Source of the DNA: a virus
Taxonomy: Duplodnaviria; Caudoviricetes
IMG/VR virus record: IMGVR_UViG_3300025053_000003
Span: 10,716 to 74,715 of that record
Length of the DNA stretch: 64,000 nucleotides
Direction: 5' to 3' (one strand)
Within the stretch, counting starts at the first letter, position 1. Each line of letters opens with the position of its first letter. The position numbers were made by a program, and so were the translations under genes. Below the pieces are notes generated by a model. That model made no database searches, was not told the DNA's origin, and saw only the letters and a program-made list of their open reading frames with translations. Positions 14,028-56,624 of the stretch are shown here, piece by piece.

Positions 14028-14771
14028 GTGAAAATGGCGAAGAAATTAGTAAAGCTAATTAAACAGATAGACGAAATACAAAAAGAAACGAAAAAATCCT
14101 TCTCCCCAAAACTGAGGCCACAGGATTTAAGAGAGTTTTACCCTTTAACAAAAACCCAAGAACACTTTTACAATATCTACATGGACTCTGAGTTTACAGC
14201 ATTACATGGTGTAGCAGGGACAGGCAAAACATTTATTGCTCTGTACAAAGCATTAGAAGACGTTCTATCTAAATCAATCTTTAAAAAGATTATAATCATC
14301 AGGTCATGTGTCCAATCAAGAGACATGGGATATCTTCCTGGTGACGAAAAAGATAAAATGGACAGGTACGCTTTACCGTATAAACAAATCTGCTCCCGTC
14401 TTTTCGAGAACAAAGAAGCTTGGAATCTTTTAGAAGAAAATAATTTAATTGAATTTATGTCAACTTCTTTTCTAAGAGGAACATCTTACAACAATTCAAT
14501 AATTCTCTTGGATGAATTTCAGAATTGCAATTATGAGGAATTAGCAACTGTTATTACTAGAGTAGGAGACAATTCCAAAATCATTTTCTGCGGCGATATT
14601 AGACAGACTGATTTAAGGAAAGCAAACGACCCTTCTGGATTACGCAAATTTTTCCAGATAGCTTCTTCAGTAAATGCCTTTAATAGAATTGAATTTGGAA
14701 TTGAGGATATTTGTAGATCAGATCTTGTTAAGGAATGGATTATAGCTGAATTAGACTGGAAGGAGAAATGA
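14028..14771 (+). CDS. phoH: PhoH-family ATPase
   Basis: GVAGTGKT, FLRGTSY, ILLDEFQN, CGDIRQTD, DICRSDLVK. Confidence 0.9.
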   Translation: MKMAKKLVKLIKQIDEIQKETKKSFSPKLRPQDLREFYPLTKTQEHFYNIYMDSEFTALHGVAGTGKTFIALYKALEDVLSKSIFKKIIIIRSCVQSRDMGYLPGDEKDKMDRYALPYKQICSRLFENKEAWNLLEENNLIEFMSTSFLRGTSYNNSIILLDEFQNCNYEELATVITRVGDNSKIIFCGDIRQTDLRKANDPSGLRKFFQIASSVNAFNRIEFGIEDICRSDLVKEWIIAELDWKEK

Positions 14772-15301
14772 TGGGAGGAGAAAGGATGGAAGGAGTTAAA
14801 CATATTAATAAAATTAGAGAATATTGTGATTACGTTGAAGAGCATTTACTTAATGTAGAAAGATCATGGTTTATTCTTCAATCCACTTGTAAAGATATGC
14901 CCATAATTTATGATGATTACTGCTATTGGTATATTGATGCAATGGTTAAAAATCATGATGTCAGTAAAATGTCAACTGAAGAATTTATTCCATATCAGCG
15001 TAATTTTTACCCGGTAGATGAGAAAGACAACGCTATTTTCGGTATAGCATGGCAGCACCATTTAATACATAATCCGCACCACTGGGAAAATTGGACTAAT
15101 ATAAAAGAGAAATTTCCCAATGAGCAAGCATGTCATTGTGTATGCATGGTGATCGACTGGATGGCTATGGGTATGAAATTTGGTGACACAGCAGAAGAAT
15201 ATTATAACGCTAATAAACACAAAATAAATATACCTGGATGGTCTGTTGAATTTATAAATGAAATTTTTAAAAAGTTGAGAGACTGGAAGGAGAACAAATG
15301 A
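14768..15301 (+). CDS. HD-like (DUF5662-like) protein; intact paralog of the split gene at 53689-56598
   Basis: HDVSK...AWQHHLIHNPHHWENW...CMVIDWMAM. Confidence 0.65.
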   Translation: MMGGERMEGVKHINKIREYCDYVEEHLLNVERSWFILQSTCKDMPIIYDDYCYWYIDAMVKNHDVSKMSTEEFIPYQRNFYPVDEKDNAIFGIAWQHHLIHNPHHWENWTNIKEKFPNEQACHCVCMVIDWMAMGMKFGDTAEEYYNANKHKINIPGWSVEFINEIFKKLRDWKENK

Positions 15302-46767: not shown

Positions 46768-47952
46768 TCATTGATATGATTCACTTTGTTCGTTAAAGGA
46801 ACTATAAATGCCTCTATTGTGAATATTAATTGCGCCATTTGTATCGGCGTCAATTAACAACCCACAAGACGTACATTGATAAGTTTCACCACGACGGTTC
46901 GACTTATCAATGATGCCACAACCTGAACAGGTCTGGGATGTATATGCTGGATCGACGGATAGAAGAAAGAAACCTTCCTCTTCAGACCGTAAAGCCAGCT
47001 TCGCCAGAACCTGTTTGTAAGACCAATATTGAAGTTTATTATTGAATTTGGTTGAGAACTTTGACTTATGTTTTACGTTTTTGAGATCTTCTACCACGAC
47101 GAGACTGTATGGGTCAAGATTAATTGAATTTACTATTTGATTAGTGAGATTCTTTTTGTATTGTAATAATCGTTTATGGCTTTTTGAACCTCTCCGCTTG
47201 TTGGCTAATTTGATATAAACCTGTTTAAGCTCTTCCCCATAATGAACGCCATTAGAATCTGAAATTAATTTATTGTAACCACAATCAAGGCCAATGGATT
47301 TACCTTGTTGTTTAACTTGACATTTTTCTTTTTCATAAATTAACGTAATATAAAAGTTGCCATTAATTTTATTTAATTGGATTGTATTTTTGCGTGTCCA
47401 ATCTTTGAATTTTAAGCTGTGTTTATGTTGTTTGATAGGGACGTTGATATTGAGGTATTTTCTTTCAAACCCTTCAATTTTATAAGGAGTATATATTCTG
47501 ATAAACGAGTCGAATAAATTACTTTCTTTGATATTAAATAAGTGGGAGCTTAAATTTATTGAAACGGTTTTTATATCAATTTTAATACGTTTTAAGTAGT
47601 TGATACTTAATTCTGAATATTTCTTATTCAAGAATGGTTTATGAATATTCTGCTCTTTACATTTAGCATATAATTTCTGGTATCGTTTAAATGTTTTATT
47701 TTTAGTGTGTTTAAGATTTGACCGAACGATGCCAGAAGCTGTTCTGTAAGCTATCCCTTTCCAGTCAGCGTGGCATATAACATTGTTCGGGAGTAATTTA
47801 CAAGATACATTTGTCTTCAGAGGGAGATCACCCTTAAGAATTAAATCAATATACAAAATTACACAGCTCTTGAAATCCTCATAAATCCTTTCGAGGACAT
47901 CAAGCTTGTGTTTATTTGCGAATTTAAGGGTGTGTTTGGAAACTCTGATCAT
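46768..47952 (-). mobile_element. tnpB: solo TnpB (IS200/IS605/IS607-type RNA-guided nuclease), no tnpA
   Basis: RuvC motifs GLDCG, VVEDL, DADTNGAINI; zinc finger CSGCG...CTSCG. Confidence 0.88.
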
Positions 47953-52840: not shown

Positions 52841-53272
52841 ATGAACGAAAGTTGGGATGATATCGAAAATTGGGGATTAACTATGGAAGATTTTACTGAT
52901 TTAAATAAGAAAACATCTTTTCGAAGGCAAGAAAGAATTTCATCTTACAACCTTGTTTCGGTTTTGTTTGCGAAAGAAAAGATTGTCTGTGTTGGTATAC
53001 ATAATTTAATTACAGGAAAAGAATGTAATGGAGAAATACAGAATATTTCCCCTACGGGCATAAAGATTTTGATTAAAGATGCTTGTTTTGTTATTTCTGA
53101 TATATTAAGAATTTCTCTTGTTATAGGGACAAGGAAGATTTTTTGCAAAGCAAAAGTTGTGTGGATGGAAGAAGTTGACCATATATCTTCTGTTGGGATA
53201 AAATTTACATCTATTTCAGAACCTGACGCAGATTTTATTAATAGCTTGCATTTAGCAATCCATTTGAAATAA
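52841..53272 (+). CDS. PilZ-domain (c-di-GMP-binding) protein
   Basis: RRQER (RxxxR), NISPTG ((D/N)xSxxG), CKAKVVW, VGIKF. Confidence 0.8.
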   Translation: MNESWDDIENWGLTMEDFTDLNKKTSFRRQERISSYNLVSVLFAKEKIVCVGIHNLITGKECNGEIQNISPTGIKILIKDACFVISDILRISLVIGTRKIFCKAKVVWMEEVDHISSVGIKFTSISEPDADFINSLHLAIHLK

Positions 53273-53275
53273 CCA

Positions 53276-53689
53276 TTGACATGTCTTGAGACATTTAGCA
53301 ACATGAAAAAAATCCAGTCCCAAATCCAAGCCGCAATTTCCATTGCCAGAGATAACCCAAACAAGTTCAGGCTTGCGGCGGTAGGGCTGGATAAGAAGGG
53401 GCGGATTATTTCAACTGGGATTAATCAAAAATTCCAAACGCATCCAGTTCAGAAGAAAATCGCACAGCGGAATGGGAAGCCGCATAGCGAATATCTTCAT
53501 GCGGAGATGAGCTGCATCCTAAGATCGCGGCAGAAAATTCATACACTGATAGTTGTTAGATTGTATGCTGATGGGGAATTAGCGATGGCTAAACCGTGTA
53601 AAATCTGTTCGTGGATGATTGATAAGTACAAAATCCCTAATTTGGTTTATAGCAATCAATATAGTAAAATGACATGGGAGAAACGGTGA
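53276..53689 (+). CDS. CMP/dCMP deaminase-family zinc protein
   Basis: HAE and PCKIC motifs. Confidence 0.82.
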   Translation: MTCLETFSNMKKIQSQIQAAISIARDNPNKFRLAAVGLDKKGRIISTGINQKFQTHPVQKKIAQRNGKPHSEYLHAEMSCILRSRQKIHTLIVVRLYADGELAMAKPCKICSWMIDKYKIPNLVYSNQYSKMTWEKR

Positions 53690-54010
53690 TGGAAGGGATA
53701 AAACATATTGATAAAATCCGTAAATACTGTGATTATGTAGAAGAACATTTGTTGAATGTTAAAAGGTCATGGGGAATTATTAAAGAATCATGCGAAGATA
53801 TGAATTTTATCTGGGACGACCAACATGCAGATACAGCGGCATAACGCCAGAAATAACGGGCGGCGGTAGCCGTCCGAGTTGATTGATTTGTTACCCTGGC
53901 CAGCCTTAAAAAAAGATTAACCAATATTGTTTTTCTGTTTACACCCGGTTGATAAAGTGATATGATTAAATCAATAAAAGGGCAAGAGCCCACAACCGAG
54001 GAGAAACAAA

Positions 54011-54268
54011 ATGAACACAATCACCACCACCCAGGCAATTGAACTCAATGCAAAATTGGCAGTGATCATTAACCGTAGCAACCCCCTTGGGCTGACCGAA
54101 AGTGGTTTACCGCAAGGCGGGGTTGAGCTGACCGCCAGCGTCACCGGAACACTCCGCCGCCTGCAAAGCATGGCCGAAAAGGCCAAGGCGGAAGGCCGGG
54201 CCACGCAACAGGCTCTTGATATGTTGGCAAAGGTCGAGGAAGCTTTTGCCGGGTATGGGGTGGCGTAA
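54011..54268 (+). CDS. cassette 1 gene A, hypothetical
   Basis: GAGGAG RBS; TTTACA-N17-TATGAT promoter at 53938-53966. Confidence 0.7.
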   Translation: MNTITTTQAIELNAKLAVIINRSNPLGLTESGLPQGGVELTASVTGTLRRLQSMAEKAKAEGRATQQALDMLAKVEEAFAGYGVA

Positions 54269-54621
54269 TGATGACCCCAGAAAAAGCAAAGAACATCTAC
54301 TGGGGAGCCTCACCGCTCCCCATTGGGGCCAAGTCGCTTGGTGAGTATGTTGGTGATGACGGCCTGTTTAAGGGCTGCCTGATCGAGTTGGCCAGCGGAA
54401 TACGGGTGGTCGGTAACGCCGGGTCAATAAAAAATATCCCCCAGCGCGGTGGCCCCAATGGGGCGGGTCGGCCAGAATTGCCAGAAGAAAAGAAAAAGGT
54501 GGGCGTGTCTGTTTTGCTGCCGCCGGATCTTTTGACCTGGATGGATAGCCGCCCGGAAAGCAGGGCGACGCTGATTGAGGAAGCCTGCCGGGCTTACTAC
54601 AAGATTCCCCTGGCAAGGTAA
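54268..54621 (+). CDS. cassette 1 gene B with C-terminal ribbon-helix-helix-like domain
   Basis: VGVSVLLPPDLLTWMD...SRATLIEEAC; stop inside the R'' box AGGTAAC. Confidence 0.65.
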   Translation: MMTPEKAKNIYWGASPLPIGAKSLGEYVGDDGLFKGCLIELASGIRVVGNAGSIKNIPQRGGPNGAGRPELPEEKKKVGVSVLLPPDLLTWMDSRPESRATLIEEACRAYYKIPLAR

Positions 54622-54684
54622 CGCAAAGTTCAGCGGAGCCGCCGCTGAAACGTATTGTTAAGCATTTTAAACAGGAGAATTGAG

Positions 54685-54972
54685 ATGGAAACGCCATTGA
54701 TCTGCACGATTGAAGACGGATGTTTGGTGGTGAAAATTGGGATCAGTACTCTTGCTTTTGCCGCCGCAAACTGCGAAGAGTTTTGGGATGGAGAGAGCGG
54801 CACCGATGTGCCAACCGTTAAAGTTACTGACGAAGCCCTGTTTGCCAAAGAAGTGCGCCGGATGCTGCTTGATGAAGCAGAAGACGGCTCAACGCTACTG
54901 ACTGGCATGATTGACCAAGCAATAATCAACGCTGTGGAAGATGGCTGTGAAGGCGTCGATCACGATGCTTAA
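54685..54972 (+). CDS. cassette 2 gene, small acidic hypothetical
   Basis: AGGAG RBS; stop inside the R'' box GCTTAAC. Confidence 0.7.
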   Translation: METPLICTIEDGCLVVKIGISTLAFAAANCEEFWDGESGTDVPTVKVTDEALFAKEVRRMLLDEAEDGSTLLTGMIDQAIINAVEDGCEGVDHDA

Positions 54973-55067
54973 CGCTAAACTCAGCCGACCGCGCCAGTGA
55001 GCTTGAATTTAACCCGGTGCTTCTCGCGGTCGGCTGTAGCATTTTGTTGGACTGTCTGCGTATATTG

Positions 55068-55724
55068 CTATTGTATTTTGCAAAGTTCTTTAACTACTTT
55101 TGAAATGTATTTCTGCTTAGTTTCGTCGTCATAATTTTCTATTTTTGATAGTTCTGAACTATGGATAATAACAATTTTATCCGTAGATAGCTGTTTAGCA
55201 ATTGAAGGATGGTTAATCCACTTCTCAGAGTTCAAGTCGATTAATTTGTATGATCCTTTATCTTTTGGGTAAAAGATTGCATCTTTCTTGGTTGGGTTTT
55301 CTCTAAATGCAGATAGAAATATATTAAAAATTATATCCCATGACCAATCTGGGTGAAGTGTCATAGGCAATCTGTTTATTTTAGAATTGTAAAATATGAA
55401 TATCTCTAATTTAACTTCTTTTGGGTTTAGTATCACCAGATGCCTTTTCCTGGAAAACATAGTGAGGACAAGCAATGCAATTAACGATAATAGAGAGAGG
55501 ATTTCAGATAGGAGTACCCGTATTTTGTATTTTGATGCAGGGTCTATGGCTCCTGTTGCTACAAAGTTTGAGGGATCAAATGCCGTCCAAATGCCTATTC
55601 CCAATCCTGCTAACGGCAGGAATGAATATCCCATTATTTTATGAAATGCTTTGTCGTGGAATACAAGGAACTTTAGGAATTGCACCGTTTGATTATCCTT
55701 TCCCATTTTGGATATATTACACAT
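55068..55724 (-). CDS. cassette 3 gene, two-TM membrane protein in reverse orientation
   Basis: Two hydrophobic segments then a soluble domain; AT-rich compared with neighbouring cassettes. Confidence 0.7.
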   Translation of the reverse strand: MCNISKMGKDNQTVQFLKFLVFHDKAFHKIMGYSFLPLAGLGIGIWTAFDPSNFVATGAIDPASKYKIRVLLSEILSLLSLIALLVLTMFSRKRHLVILNPKEVKLEIFIFYNSKINRLPMTLHPDWSWDIIFNIFLSAFRENPTKKDAIFYPKDKGSYKLIDLNSEKWINHPSIAKQLSTDKIVIIHSSELSKIENYDDETKQKYISKVVKELCKIQ

Positions 55725-56624
55725 TGGTTGTTTGGTCAGTTATAGCCCAACGCCAAGGGTAACTTGCCGCTTGCCCTGGAAAGACGCGGCACGAAGAAAG
55801 GAGAAATTAGCCATGAATGAACTTGATAACGCCACAGGGCAAGCGGTCAATGTTGACCCGCTTGTTATGCCAAGTCCTGATTCAATACGAGCAGTCATAG
55901 ACGGGATTTTCACCAATTCCCAAACTGAATTTCTCGCTTTGGACGAGGCTGGGCTTGACAAGTTCTGGCACTTTCGCTGGTCTGACAACTGCGATTTTGC
56001 CATGAACCTCTATCGTTTTCATAAGGCACTATCCCTGTACGGGAATTTCTGCCGCCGATGGGAAGAGCTACACAATGGGACGTGCTGTGTGGTGGAGAGA
56101 GTTAGGGATAAATATTTGCTCCCGAAATTCCAGATGCTGATCGAGATGGCCAACTTTAACCCCGAAGAGCATTTACGTAAATTAGGACAGATTGACGGTG
56201 ACGACCATTTGTATTGGACTATTGATGCAATGGTGCAACGGCATGATATAAGTAAATTGTCATTTAAGGAATTTATTCCTTACCAACAGAATTTTTATCC
56301 GGTAGGCGAAAAGGAAACATCTAATTTTAAGAATGCTTGGGCGCACCATTTAACTCATAACCCTCACCATTGGGAAAGTTGGATAGGGATAAAAGAAAAA
56401 TTTCCCAATGAGCAAGCCTGTCATTGTGTCTGTATGGTAATTGATTGGATGGCCATGGGAATGAAATTCGGCGATACAGCAGAAGAGTATTATGAGTTGA
56501 ATAAGCATAAAATTTATATCCCAGGGTGGGCTAAGACTTTTATCCAAGAAATATTCAGTAGGATTAAATTGTATACAGAGAAGATCAACACTAAGTAACA
56601 CAATCCGTAACTTTAGGCGTACCG

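What the first reader, a model, noticed from the sequence alone, without database searches (positions are those of the whole stretch)
53815..56207. A closed circle of four integron-like cassettes captured by the phage through 8-bp microhomology
Seen: four attC-like hairpins, each with a TAAC/CAAC R'' box, an internal inverted repeat and a GTT R' box. Each cassette's end box is complementary to its own start box: GTTACCC(53890)/AGGTAAC(54616) 6/7, GTTAAGC(54657)/GCTTAAC(54967) 7/7, GTTGGAC(55046)/GCCCAAC(55745) 6/7. The last R' GTTATGC(55864) pairs 7/7 with the FIRST R'' GCATAAC(53839). Joining the GACGACCA repeats (53815-22, 56200-07) rebuilds both the phage gene (...FIWDDHLYW...) and a fourth cassette gene (...QIDGDDQHADTAA*, stop in GCATAAC). 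Cassette sizes 767+389+818+411 sum to the 2385-bp insert. Established: integron cassettes excise as circles and often stop in R''. Inferred: a multi-cassette circle integrated by single crossover at a non-att site, with no integrase nearby, giving a route for cassettes to move into phages.
Basis: partly seen in the sequence, partly recalled or inferred. Interest (0 to 1): 0.93.

Follow-up and report, generated by a model that had tools for sequence, protein, structure and literature searches.

The report
Permuted integron cassette circle in phage
A groundwater phage carries four genuine integron gene cassettes that entered one of its genes as a closed four-cassette circle, joined at an 8-base chance match and not at a recombination site; cassettes in phages were already reported, but this entry footprint and the back-to-front build of the cassettes appear not to have been.

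Summary
A 2385-bp GC-richer insert (53823-56207), flanked by GACGACCA repeats, splits a phage DUF5662 gene. An intact paralog in the same phage and six homologues in other phages show that gene uninterrupted at this point.

A covariance model built only from sites in other viral contigs recognises every known class 1 integron attC in control plasmids. Box complementarity between successive sites, including the closing pair, is 14/16, the best of 24 pairings. Only the circle join ends ORF E in frame at TAA inside GCATAAC, as in a homologue elsewhere.

Independent assemblies carry both junctions. Three contigs end exactly one k-mer outside each junction, so an empty allele probably coexists.

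One correction: the + strand is the attC bottom strand. R' and R'' are therefore swapped, borders lie at AA|C of the left boxes (777+351+778+479 bp), and each attC sits upstream of its gene.

Cassette clusters in phages are published (Qi et al. 2023), and this scan noted phage arrays, some 'built backwards', on other DNA. The new points are the permuted-circle, non-integrase capture and the reversed, phage-type cassettes. No integrase is on the contig.

The parts
53674..53822 (+). N-terminal fragment of the disrupted phage DUF5662 gene (...MNFIWDD). As it stands, it reads on into the insert and stops at 53844.
   Evidence: it is contiguous with the C-part in the in-genome paralog and in L053-L058.
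53815..53822 (.). Left copy of the 8-bp repeat GACGACCA (microhomology at the crossover).
53823..56207 (+). The 2385-bp insert: four integron cassettes, circularly permuted.
53823..53844 (+). Last 22 nt of cassette 4: the 3' end of ORF E (...QHADTAA, stop TAA inside GCATAA|C).
   Evidence: Homologue P0024 in L014 also stops inside GCATAAC.
53839..53896 (+). attC 1 (58 bp), bottom strand on +. R' is GCATAA|C and R'' is GTTACCC. An extra G lies 8 nt before GTT.
   Evidence: 32.1 bits, E 6e-6.
53845..54621 (+). Cassette 1 (777 bp): attC 1, a promoter-bearing leader, ORF A and ORF B.
   Evidence: Homologous cassettes occur in L061 and L064; nucleotide similarity ends at 54622.
53938..53966 (+). 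Sigma-70-like promoter TTTACA-17-(TG)TATGAT in the cassette 1 leader.
   Evidence: 10/12 matches. The leader is 81% and 76% identical in L061 and L064.
54011..54268 (+). ORF A (85 aa), no known family.
54268..54621 (+). ORF B (117 aa). Its stop TAA is the last three bases of cassette 1 (AGGTAA|C). Homologues always follow an A-like ORF in phage contigs.
54616..54663 (+). attC 2 (48 bp), bottom strand on +.
   Evidence: 27.1 bits, E 1e-4; minus strand 11.3 bits.
54622..54972 (+). Cassette 2 (351 bp): attC 2 and ORF C (54685-54972, 95 aa, stop inside GCTTAA|C).
   Evidence: (PHROGs 21508, 31817, 15438).
54967..55052 (+). attC 3 (86 bp), bottom strand on +, with an 11-12-bp perfect stem.
   Evidence: 17.0 bits, E 0.042; minus strand 8.3 bits.
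54973..55750 (+). Cassette 3 (778 bp, 32% GC): attC 3 and ORF D.
55068..55724 (-). ORF D (218 aa). It is an orphan, and the only ORF lying in the classical orientation relative to its attC. One assembly's gene caller did not call it as a single gene.
55745..55870 (+). attC 4 (126 bp), bottom strand on +. Its loop carries AAGGAG and the ATG (55813) of ORF E. It recurs in other contigs, bounded at AAC...GTTATGC.
   Evidence: 22.7 bits, E 1.4e-3.
55751..56207 (+). First 457 nt of cassette 4 (479 bp in all, together with 53823-53844): attC 4 and the 5' part of ORF E.
55813..56598 (+). In-frame fusion ORF as it stands: ORF E residues 1-131 joined to the DUF5662 C-part.
56200..56207 (.). Right copy of the 8-bp repeat GACGACCA.
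56200..56598 (+). C-terminal part of the disrupted DUF5662 gene (DDHLYWTIDAM...).
   Evidence: PF18907, profile positions 31-153, E 9e-18.
14768..15301 (+). Intact paralog (177 aa) of the disrupted DUF5662 gene. It serves as an in-genome picture of the empty site.
   Evidence: 126/177 identical, no gap at the junction.

Best explanation
The insert is a cluster of four true integron cassettes with no integrase (a CALIN) inside a tailed-phage genome.

Most likely a host integron integrase excised four neighbouring cassettes as one 2385-bp circle. The circle then joined the phage chromosome once. The join was not at an attC site. It fell inside the coding sequence of cassette gene E and inside the phage DUF5662 gene, where both happen to read GACGACCA. 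The mechanism would be microhomology-mediated illegitimate recombination, or the equivalent template switch of a replisome once round the circle.

The result:
- The 8 bp are duplicated at both ends of the insert.
- The phage gene is split.
- Gene E is split and permuted: its last 22 nt lie at the left end and the rest at the right end, now fused in frame to the DUF5662 C-part.

An intact DUF5662 paralog elsewhere in the genome probably made the hit tolerable. The insertion appears to be polymorphic in the aquifer population.

The cassettes are built the reverse way from classical ones. The gene-coding strand is the attC bottom strand, so each cassette reads attC, then leader, then gene, ending in TAA|C. 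Cassette 1 carries its own promoter, and attC 4 carries the translation start of E.

Shown: the attC identity, the strand, the box chain, the split gene, the repeats, the frame closure and the independent assemblies. Inferred: the circle, the integrase excision, the joining mechanism and the coexistence of an empty allele.
For: 1. attC identity.
- R1 was built from sites in L023, L018 and L031, with covariation exceeding 500/500 shuffles.
- R1 hits all six known class 1 attCs in four control plasmids at 27.9-49.5 bits and nothing else above 11.3 bits.
- In the window R1 hits only the four sites. In the whole 74.7-kb record it hits only the insert.

2. Strand.
- Control attCs are hit on the strand opposite their genes. 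Window sites are hit on the strand of ORFs A, B, C and E.
- Extra bases lie on the 3' arm. A G lies 8 nt before GTT in sites 1 and 4, where the controls show C9/A16 on the 5' arm of the coding strand.
- This matches the definition of the bottom strand in Nivina 2016, PMC5027507.

3. Circle.
- The cyclic box chain scores 14/16, the best of 24 pairings.
- The join gives a 138-aa ORF E ending at TAA inside GCATAA|C, just as B and C end at TAA|C.
- Homologue P0024 runs from GTTATGC to a stop inside GCATAAC.
- Counting the 8 bp as a target duplication breaks this frame.

4. Split phage gene.
- Pfam DUF5662 covers the C-part only.
- The paralog at 14768-15301 and L053-L058 are contiguous across ...W-DD-(H/Y)L....

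5. The insertion is real.
- 15 runs hold the whole stretch.
- Contigs of 33 kb and 5.3 kb span it with 0 differences. Two other studies bridge the left junction, and one of them also the right.
- A 63-kb scaffold from another sample is identical across it.

6. Polymorphism. Contigs L068, L067 and L065 end at 53793/56229, 53768/56254 and 53746/56276. These are exactly the ends expected for assembly-graph branches at both junctions with k = 31, 55 and 77.

7. The DNA is a phage and carries no integrase.
- Terminase, portal, DnaB, RNA ligase and exonuclease are present.
- There is no PF00589 tyrosine recombinase.
Against: - No read or contig showing the free circle or the empty junction was retrieved. 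The contig ends give no sign of circle k-mers in those samples.
- The donor integron and integrase are unknown.
- IntegronFinder's own model could not be run; R1 is a home-made proxy.
- Sites 2 and 3 lack the canonical extra G, and site 3 reaches only E 0.042.
- Homologous A-B cassettes in L061 and L064 carry different attC cores upstream. L064 has a site-1-like core downstream of B. So which core travels with which cargo is not settled by comparison.
- One array (L020) carries an E homologue in the classical orientation.
Confidence: 0.75

Rival explanations
1. The block came from a linear donor and not from a circle. The donor would be a chromosomal or phage-borne array, or a tandem or rolling-circle concatemer, in which cassette 4 lies on both sides of cassettes 1-3. 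It would have been copied in by two template switches or two illegitimate joins.
For: Arrays with related attCs and E-family cassettes exist in other viral contigs. Another contig in the same sample carries a site-4-like attC in a different context.
Against: Both joins would have to use the same 8-bp word at the same position of two copies of gene E. A single crossover with a circle needs only one event. No duplicated cassette 4 was seen in any retrieved contig.
Confidence: 0.1
2. An integron integrase inserted the cassettes at a non-classical genomic site (attC x attG or secondary site), as shown for bacterial genomes by Loot et al.
For: IntI can insert cassettes outside att sites (preprint 10.1101/2022.09.11.507474). 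In L061 a homologous cassette array ends exactly at GGGTAA|C against AT-rich phage DNA, as expected for such an event.
Against: In the window neither junction lies at an attC crossover. The left junction is 22 nt before AA|C of attC 1, and the right one is 456 nt after AA|C of attC 4, inside ORF E. The phage target GACGACCATTTG has no AAC or GTT at the join.
Confidence: 0.04
3. A transposon-like element without a transposase inserted here and made an 8-bp target-site duplication.
For: An 8-bp direct repeat flanks the insert.
Against: The insert has no terminal inverted repeats and no transposase. If the 8 bp were target-derived only, ORF E would not close in frame on the TAA of GCATAAC, whereas ORFs B and C and homologue P0024 all end in that way. 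The internal structure is four attC cassettes.
Confidence: 0.03
4. The insert is an assembly chimera, or the hairpins are ordinary terminators or repeats whose box pattern is coincidence.
For: The record is a metagenome contig. Sites 1 and 2 score at background level on stem strength alone.
Against: At least five assemblers or samples give the same junctions. The attC model hits only these four sites in 64 kb, and the same model finds all class 1 attCs in the controls. The box chain is the best of 24 pairings.
Confidence: 0.02

Closest known systems
CALINs (clusters of attC sites lacking an integron integrase) in temperate and virulent phages: Qi, Rajabal, Ghaly, Tetu, Gillings 2023, Front Microbiol (PMC9892861)
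   Same: Several attC-bounded cassettes lie in a phage genome with no integrase. That paper showed 5 of 6 tested phage attCs recombine with attI1 under IntI1, noted orphan DNA methyltransferases as cargo (also seen here in L023), and suggested illegitimate recombination as the route of entry.
   Different: Here the entry event can be read from the sequence. The four-cassette unit is circularly permuted, and the join lies inside a cassette gene and a phage gene at an 8-bp microhomology. An uninterrupted paralog is present and an empty allele probably coexists. The sections of the paper I read do not mention the reversed attC-to-gene orientation or translation starts inside attC loops.
Classical integron cassettes and multi-cassette circles (class 1 integrons, sedentary chromosomal integrons)
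   Same: The sites have RYYYAAC/GTTRRRY boxes, an unpaired central spacer, and extra bases on one arm. The end box of each cassette is complementary to its start box. Stop codons lie in the box. Excision of neighbouring cassettes as one circle by attC x attC recombination is established knowledge.
   Different: Genes A, B, C and E lie on the attC bottom strand, so attC is upstream of the gene; class 1 controls show the opposite. There is no attI, Pc promoter or IntI. Integration was not site-specific.
IntI-mediated cassette insertion at attG or secondary genomic sites: Loot et al. preprint 10.1101/2022.09.11.507474
   Same: Cassettes end up outside an integron, inside ordinary genes.
   Different: Those events cross over at the attC R' box. 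Here both junctions are inside ORF E, so the integrase did not make the join.
Cassette-borne promoters and reverse-oriented cassettes such as cmlA and toxin-antitoxin cassettes (review PMC8876359; Nivina 2016, PMC5027507)
   Same: Cassette 1 has its own promoter-like leader. Reverse orientation relative to the array is known as an exception.
   Different: Here three of the four cassettes are reversed, as are whole arrays in other phage contigs (L023, L053, L061). Their cargo belongs to phage-type gene families.

Membership tests
attC site (integron cassette recombination site) | Inverted core boxes RYYYAAC ... GTTRRRY flanking an imperfect palindrome | tested here: met
   All four sites have AAC...GTT with paired arms. 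Six of the eight boxes depart from the strict R/Y consensus at one or two positions.
attC site (integron cassette recombination site) | Recognised by an attC covariance model | tested here: met
   IntegronFinder's model was not available. Proxy model R1 finds 6/6 known class 1 attCs at 27.9-49.5 bits and the four window sites at 17.0-32.1 bits, E 6e-6 to 0.042, with nothing else in 64 kb.
attC site (integron cassette recombination site) | Extra (extrahelical) bases on the arm opposite the cleaved AAC, with an unpaired central spacer of about 5 nt | tested here: met
   All extra bases near the boxes lie on the 3' arm of the + strand. A G lies 8 nt before GTT in sites 1 and 4, and a T in site 3. 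Site 2 has only an asymmetric spacer. Controls show the mirror image on the coding strand.
attC site (integron cassette recombination site) | The box at a cassette's end is complementary to the box at its own start (circularisable unit) | tested here: met
   3, 4, 3 and 4 of 4 variable positions, cyclic, the best of 24 pairings. The same chain is mostly 7/7 in L023, L053 and L061.
attC site (integron cassette recombination site) | Recombined by an integron integrase | not testable with these tools
   This needs a suicide-conjugation attC x attI assay.
CALIN (cluster of attC sites lacking integrase) | Two or more attC sites close together with no intI nearby | tested here: met
   Four sites lie within 2.1 kb. 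There is no PF00589 match in the 74.7-kb record. The record is about 58% complete.
Complete integron | intI gene with attI and a Pc promoter next to the array | tested here: not met
   no tyrosine recombinase is present. The flanks of the insert are the two halves of a phage gene.
IntI-mediated attC x attG or secondary-site insertion | The junction lies at the AA|C (G|TT) crossover of an attC | tested here: not met
   both junctions lie inside ORF E, 22 nt and 456 nt from the nearest crossover points.
Insertion sequence or transposon with target-site duplication | Terminal inverted repeats, a transposase, and a duplication derived from the target only | tested here: not met
   there are no such repeats and no transposase, and the 8 bp are needed once for ORF E to close in frame.

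The most novel reading that the evidence does not exclude
Environmental tailed phages trade their own accessory genes as reverse-built integron cassettes: attC first, often carrying the promoter or translation start, then the gene, ending in TAA|C. They would use host integrases they do not encode.

The window would record two layers of this traffic. The first is the capture of a free four-cassette circle by illegitimate recombination. The second is a target gene family (DUF5662) that is itself a cassette in a related phage genome with direct terminal repeats and no recombinase (L053).

If so, integron recombination is a general phage gene-shuffling system, and phage genes may be one source of cassettes.
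Probability: 0.35. Interest if true: 0.8.

Novelty: new variant of a known kind. Interest (0 to 1): 0.62.

Why it matters
Free cassette circles are the assumed currency of integrons, but they are rarely caught in nature. Here the order of four cassettes, a split and permuted cassette gene and an 8-bp repeat together record such a circle being captured without the integrase. The host is a phage with no integrase on the 58% of its genome that was recovered. That gives one concrete, testable origin for orphan attC clusters in phages, and a way for cassettes to travel between hosts.

The cargo families (A-B, C, E) occur mainly in phage contigs. The cassettes are built with attC upstream of the gene. 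The target gene family is itself a cassette in another phage. Together these point to two-way gene flow between phage accessory genomes and integrons, which bears on the open question of where cassettes come from.

Tried and rejected
- **Rfam:** nothing relevant in the region. It seems to hold no attC family.
- **Phage collection, blastn:** no match.
- **Pattern scans for site 4:** viral, metagenome and genome collections gave only chance matches plus L011, a 1.9-kb copy of part of the same insert.
- **Exact empty-junction 29-mer in viral contigs:** no match.
- **Look-up of the neighbouring dCMP deaminase,** meant to find an empty allele: only two insertion-allele contigs.
- **Read laying:** no joint across 53822 to 56208 and no circle joint in the four runs laid. 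An empty-allele unitig would be only about 52 nt at k=31, so this says little.
- **Intact 179-aa DUF5662 protein and 138-aa ORF E:** these could not be handed to the exact-match look-ups, because joined sequences have no reference.
- **Integron integrase TIGR02249 and PF00589:** absent from the records of L023, L020, L018, L031, L026 and L053. Most of these are fragments.
- **PADLOC and NCBIfam:** no hit for any cassette ORF.
- **Pfam:** nothing for A-D.
- **Protein atlas:** only weak leads.
- **AlphaFold model of E:** confident helical bundle (pLDDT 88), but no Foldseek match in the PDB.
- **ORF D:** no homologue besides itself.
- **Which attC core travels with the A-B cargo:** comparison across L061, L064 and the window did not settle this.
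- **T4-type promoter-stem-loop cassettes:** considered from memory as an alternative family and dropped once the attC model matched.
Full report
**What is there.**
- The window is part of a 74.7-kb IMG/VR viral contig from groundwater metagenomes.
- It is a real tailed-phage genome: terminase large subunit, portal, DnaB helicase, replication initiator, RNA ligase and exonuclease are present.
- It has no tyrosine recombinase.
- Between a dCMP deaminase gene and a CCA-adding enzyme gene lies a DUF5662 gene split in two. An N-terminal fragment ends ...MNFIWDD at 53822. A C-terminal part starts DDHLYW... at 56200 and matches Pfam profile positions 31-153.
- The 2385 bp in between are flanked by GACGACCA on both sides.
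- The insert differs in composition from the 33%-GC flanks: 55%, then 32%, then 47% GC.

**The phage gene is normally continuous.**
- The same phage holds an intact paralog at 14768-15301. The rebuilt 179-aa protein aligns to it without a gap across the junction, with 126 of 177 residues identical.
- Six homologues in other viral contigs (L053-L058) read ...W-DD-(H/Y)L... without interruption.

**The insertion is not an artefact.**
- Fifteen runs hold the whole stretch.
- A 33-kb contig and a 5.3-kb contig span it with no differences. Short contigs from two further studies bridge the left junction, and one of those studies also bridges the right.
- A 63-kb scaffold from another sample is identical through the insert.
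- Three contigs from three assemblies end at 53793/56229, 53768/56254 and 53746/56276. These are exactly the ends a de Bruijn graph gives if it branches at both junctions with k = 31, 55 and 77.
- The simplest second path in that graph is the uninterrupted gene, so the insertion is probably polymorphic. This is inference: I could not retrieve an empty-allele contig.
- The same logic predicts breaks at 53815 and 56207 if circle junction k-mers were present. No such breaks are seen.

**The hairpins are attC sites.**
- Rfam gave nothing, and IntegronFinder is not available here, so I built a model from independent material.
- Homologues of ORF E led to viral contigs with rows of similar sites.
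- Fourteen sites from L023, L018 and L031 were aligned and given a hand-set structure. That structure shows covariation beyond all 500 shuffles. They were then turned into covariance model R1.
- As a control I fetched four plasmids with class 1 integrons. R1 finds every known attC there (blaOXA-732, aadA2, qacG2, arr-2, the aac(6')-Ia/DUF3788 cassette, cmlA5) at 27.9-49.5 bits and nothing else above 11.3 bits.
- On the whole record it finds nothing outside the insert.

**The strand.**
- In the controls R1 matches the strand opposite the cassette genes. In the window it matches the + strand, which encodes ORFs A, B, C and E.
- My arm-by-arm alignment shows why. Class 1 attCs have extra bases C9 and A16 on the 5' arm of the coding strand. 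The window sites have their extra bases on the 3' arm of the + strand, with a G 8 nt before GTT in sites 1 and 4. L023, L018 and L031 sites have G9 with T16 or T17.
- Nivina et al. 2016 define the bottom strand as the one cleaved in the 5'-AAC-3' of R', with the extrahelical bases on the opposite arm.
- So the + strand is the bottom strand, the left boxes are R', and the crossover is AA|C.
- Cassette borders are therefore 53844|45, 54621|22, 54972|73 and 55750|51, giving sizes 777, 351, 778 and 479 bp.
- Each cassette reads attC, then leader, then gene. ORFs B, C and the rebuilt E all end with TAA as the last three bases of their cassette. This explains why attC 4 holds the ribosome-binding site and ATG of ORF E: they belong to the same cassette.
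- Three observations support this:
  - In L014, L015 and L031 the E homologue likewise starts inside the upstream attC.
  - In L020 the sites lie the other way round, and there the E homologue's 3' end overlaps the downstream attC.
  - In L061 an array ends exactly at GGGTAA|C against AT-rich phage DNA.
- A caveat: homologous A-B cassettes carry different attC cores.

**The circle.**
- The right box of each site is complementary to the left box of the next: 3, 4 and 3 of 4 variable positions.
- The last right box, GTTATGC, pairs 4/4 with the first left box, GCATAAC. This cyclic pairing is the best of all 24.
- Joining the two GACGACCA copies gives a 138-aa ORF E ending ...GDDQHADTAA, with its stop inside GCATAA|C.
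- Homologue P0024 in L014 runs from GTTATGC to a stop inside GCATAAC.
- If the 8 bp were only a target duplication, the frame would not close.
- A gene whose tail lies at the left end of the insert and whose head lies at the right end needs a circular or repeated donor. One crossover with a circle is the simplest account.
- Neither junction is at an attC crossover, so the integrase did not make the join. That excludes the attC x attG route of Loot et al.. An 8-bp identity is what illegitimate recombination or template switching typically uses.

**The cargo.**
- The A-B pair recurs in phage contigs: next to primase-helicase, SNF2 helicase, methylase and MazG genes in L061, and next to a portal gene in L062. 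Its leader carries TTTACA-17-TATGAT and is conserved in L061 and L064.
- ORF C hits three PHROG families of unknown function.
- ORF E belongs to a family of about 105-aa proteins with the motif CRRWEExHNGxCCVVERVRDKY. The family occurs in prophage and phage early regions and in cassette arrays. Its model is a confident helical bundle with no match in the PDB, and the attC-encoded first 20 residues are poorly ordered.
- ORF D is an AT-rich orphan.
- No function can be assigned to any of them. There were no defence-system hits.

**The wider picture.**
- attC arrays are common in the related viral contigs. There are 17 R1 hits in the record of L023, whose cargo includes three N6_N4 methyltransferases on the bottom-strand side and which lies next to Erf and YqaJ genes. 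There are nine hits in the record of L031.
- In L053 the DUF5662 gene is itself a reverse-built cassette: GTTAGAC...GTCTAA|C is 7/7, and the next cassette, GTTAGCA...TGCTAA|C, is also 7/7. L053's record has direct terminal repeats and no recombinase.

**Comparison with what is known.**
- Qi et al. 2023 already reported integrons and 17 CALINs in 21 phages. They showed that phage attCs work with IntI1 and proposed illegitimate recombination as the route of entry.
- Earlier notes of this scan also describe many phage-borne arrays. Two are described as built backwards, and one describes a permuted cassette copy captured inside an insertion sequence. These are unchecked notes, but they agree with what I found independently.
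- The kind is therefore known. What this locus adds is a legible entry event (permuted multi-cassette circle, microhomology join, likely polymorphism) and clear evidence for the reversed cassette layout.

Noticed in passing
window 14768-15301 (+): An intact second DUF5662 gene (177 aa, 71% identical to the rebuilt disrupted copy) lies in the same phage. This redundancy may explain why the insertion is tolerated.
   Followed up: yes
L053:3796-4746: In a related viral genome with direct terminal repeats and no tyrosine recombinase, the DUF5662 gene is itself bracketed as a reverse-built cassette (GTTAGAC...GTCTAA|C, 7/7). At least one more cassette follows it.
   Followed up: partly
L023:5883-12184 (record G001): A viral contig with Erf, YqaJ and DUF1376 genes carries 17 model hits in all. 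About 13 of them form one array with mostly 7/7 box chains. Cargo includes three N6_N4 DNA methyltransferases on the attC bottom-strand side and a trypsin-like peptidase on the other strand.
   Followed up: partly
L061:2528-4450: A phage contig has three attCs and a homologue of cassette 1 (84% identical in ORF B). The array ends exactly at GGGTAA|C against AT-rich phage DNA, as expected for integrase-mediated insertion at a non-att site.
   Followed up: partly
window 55749-55871, other contigs of runs X1 and X17: attC 4 recurs in unrelated contexts. One 1801-bp contig has the same arms with a different 76-nt loop and the left box GCATAAC. One 251-bp contig has 7 differences, one of which (55836 A>G) keeps a G-T pair on the + strand.
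   Followed up: partly
window 55813-56598 (+): The insertion created an in-frame fusion of ORF E (residues 1-131) to the C-terminal 130 residues of DUF5662, behind a good ribosome-binding site. Whether it is made or has any effect is unknown.
   Followed up: no
L015:71-1182: A 1.2-kb metagenome contig holds at least three attCs. Two share an identical 44-nt 3' arm, so two consecutive unrelated ORFs start with the same attC-encoded peptide (...KSTASAGQLEQPVM).
   Followed up: partly
window 55068-55724 (-): ORF D (218 aa, 32% GC, two predicted membrane helices by eye) has no homologue in 5.8 billion proteins other than itself. One assembly's gene caller split the region into two shorter ORFs on opposite strands.
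   Followed up: partly
window 52841-53272 and 46768-47952: A stand-alone PilZ-domain gene (Pfam E 1.6e-10) lies just upstream. A 394-aa ORF on the minus strand was read as TnpB by another first-stage note. Neither has a visible link to the insert.
   Followed up: no
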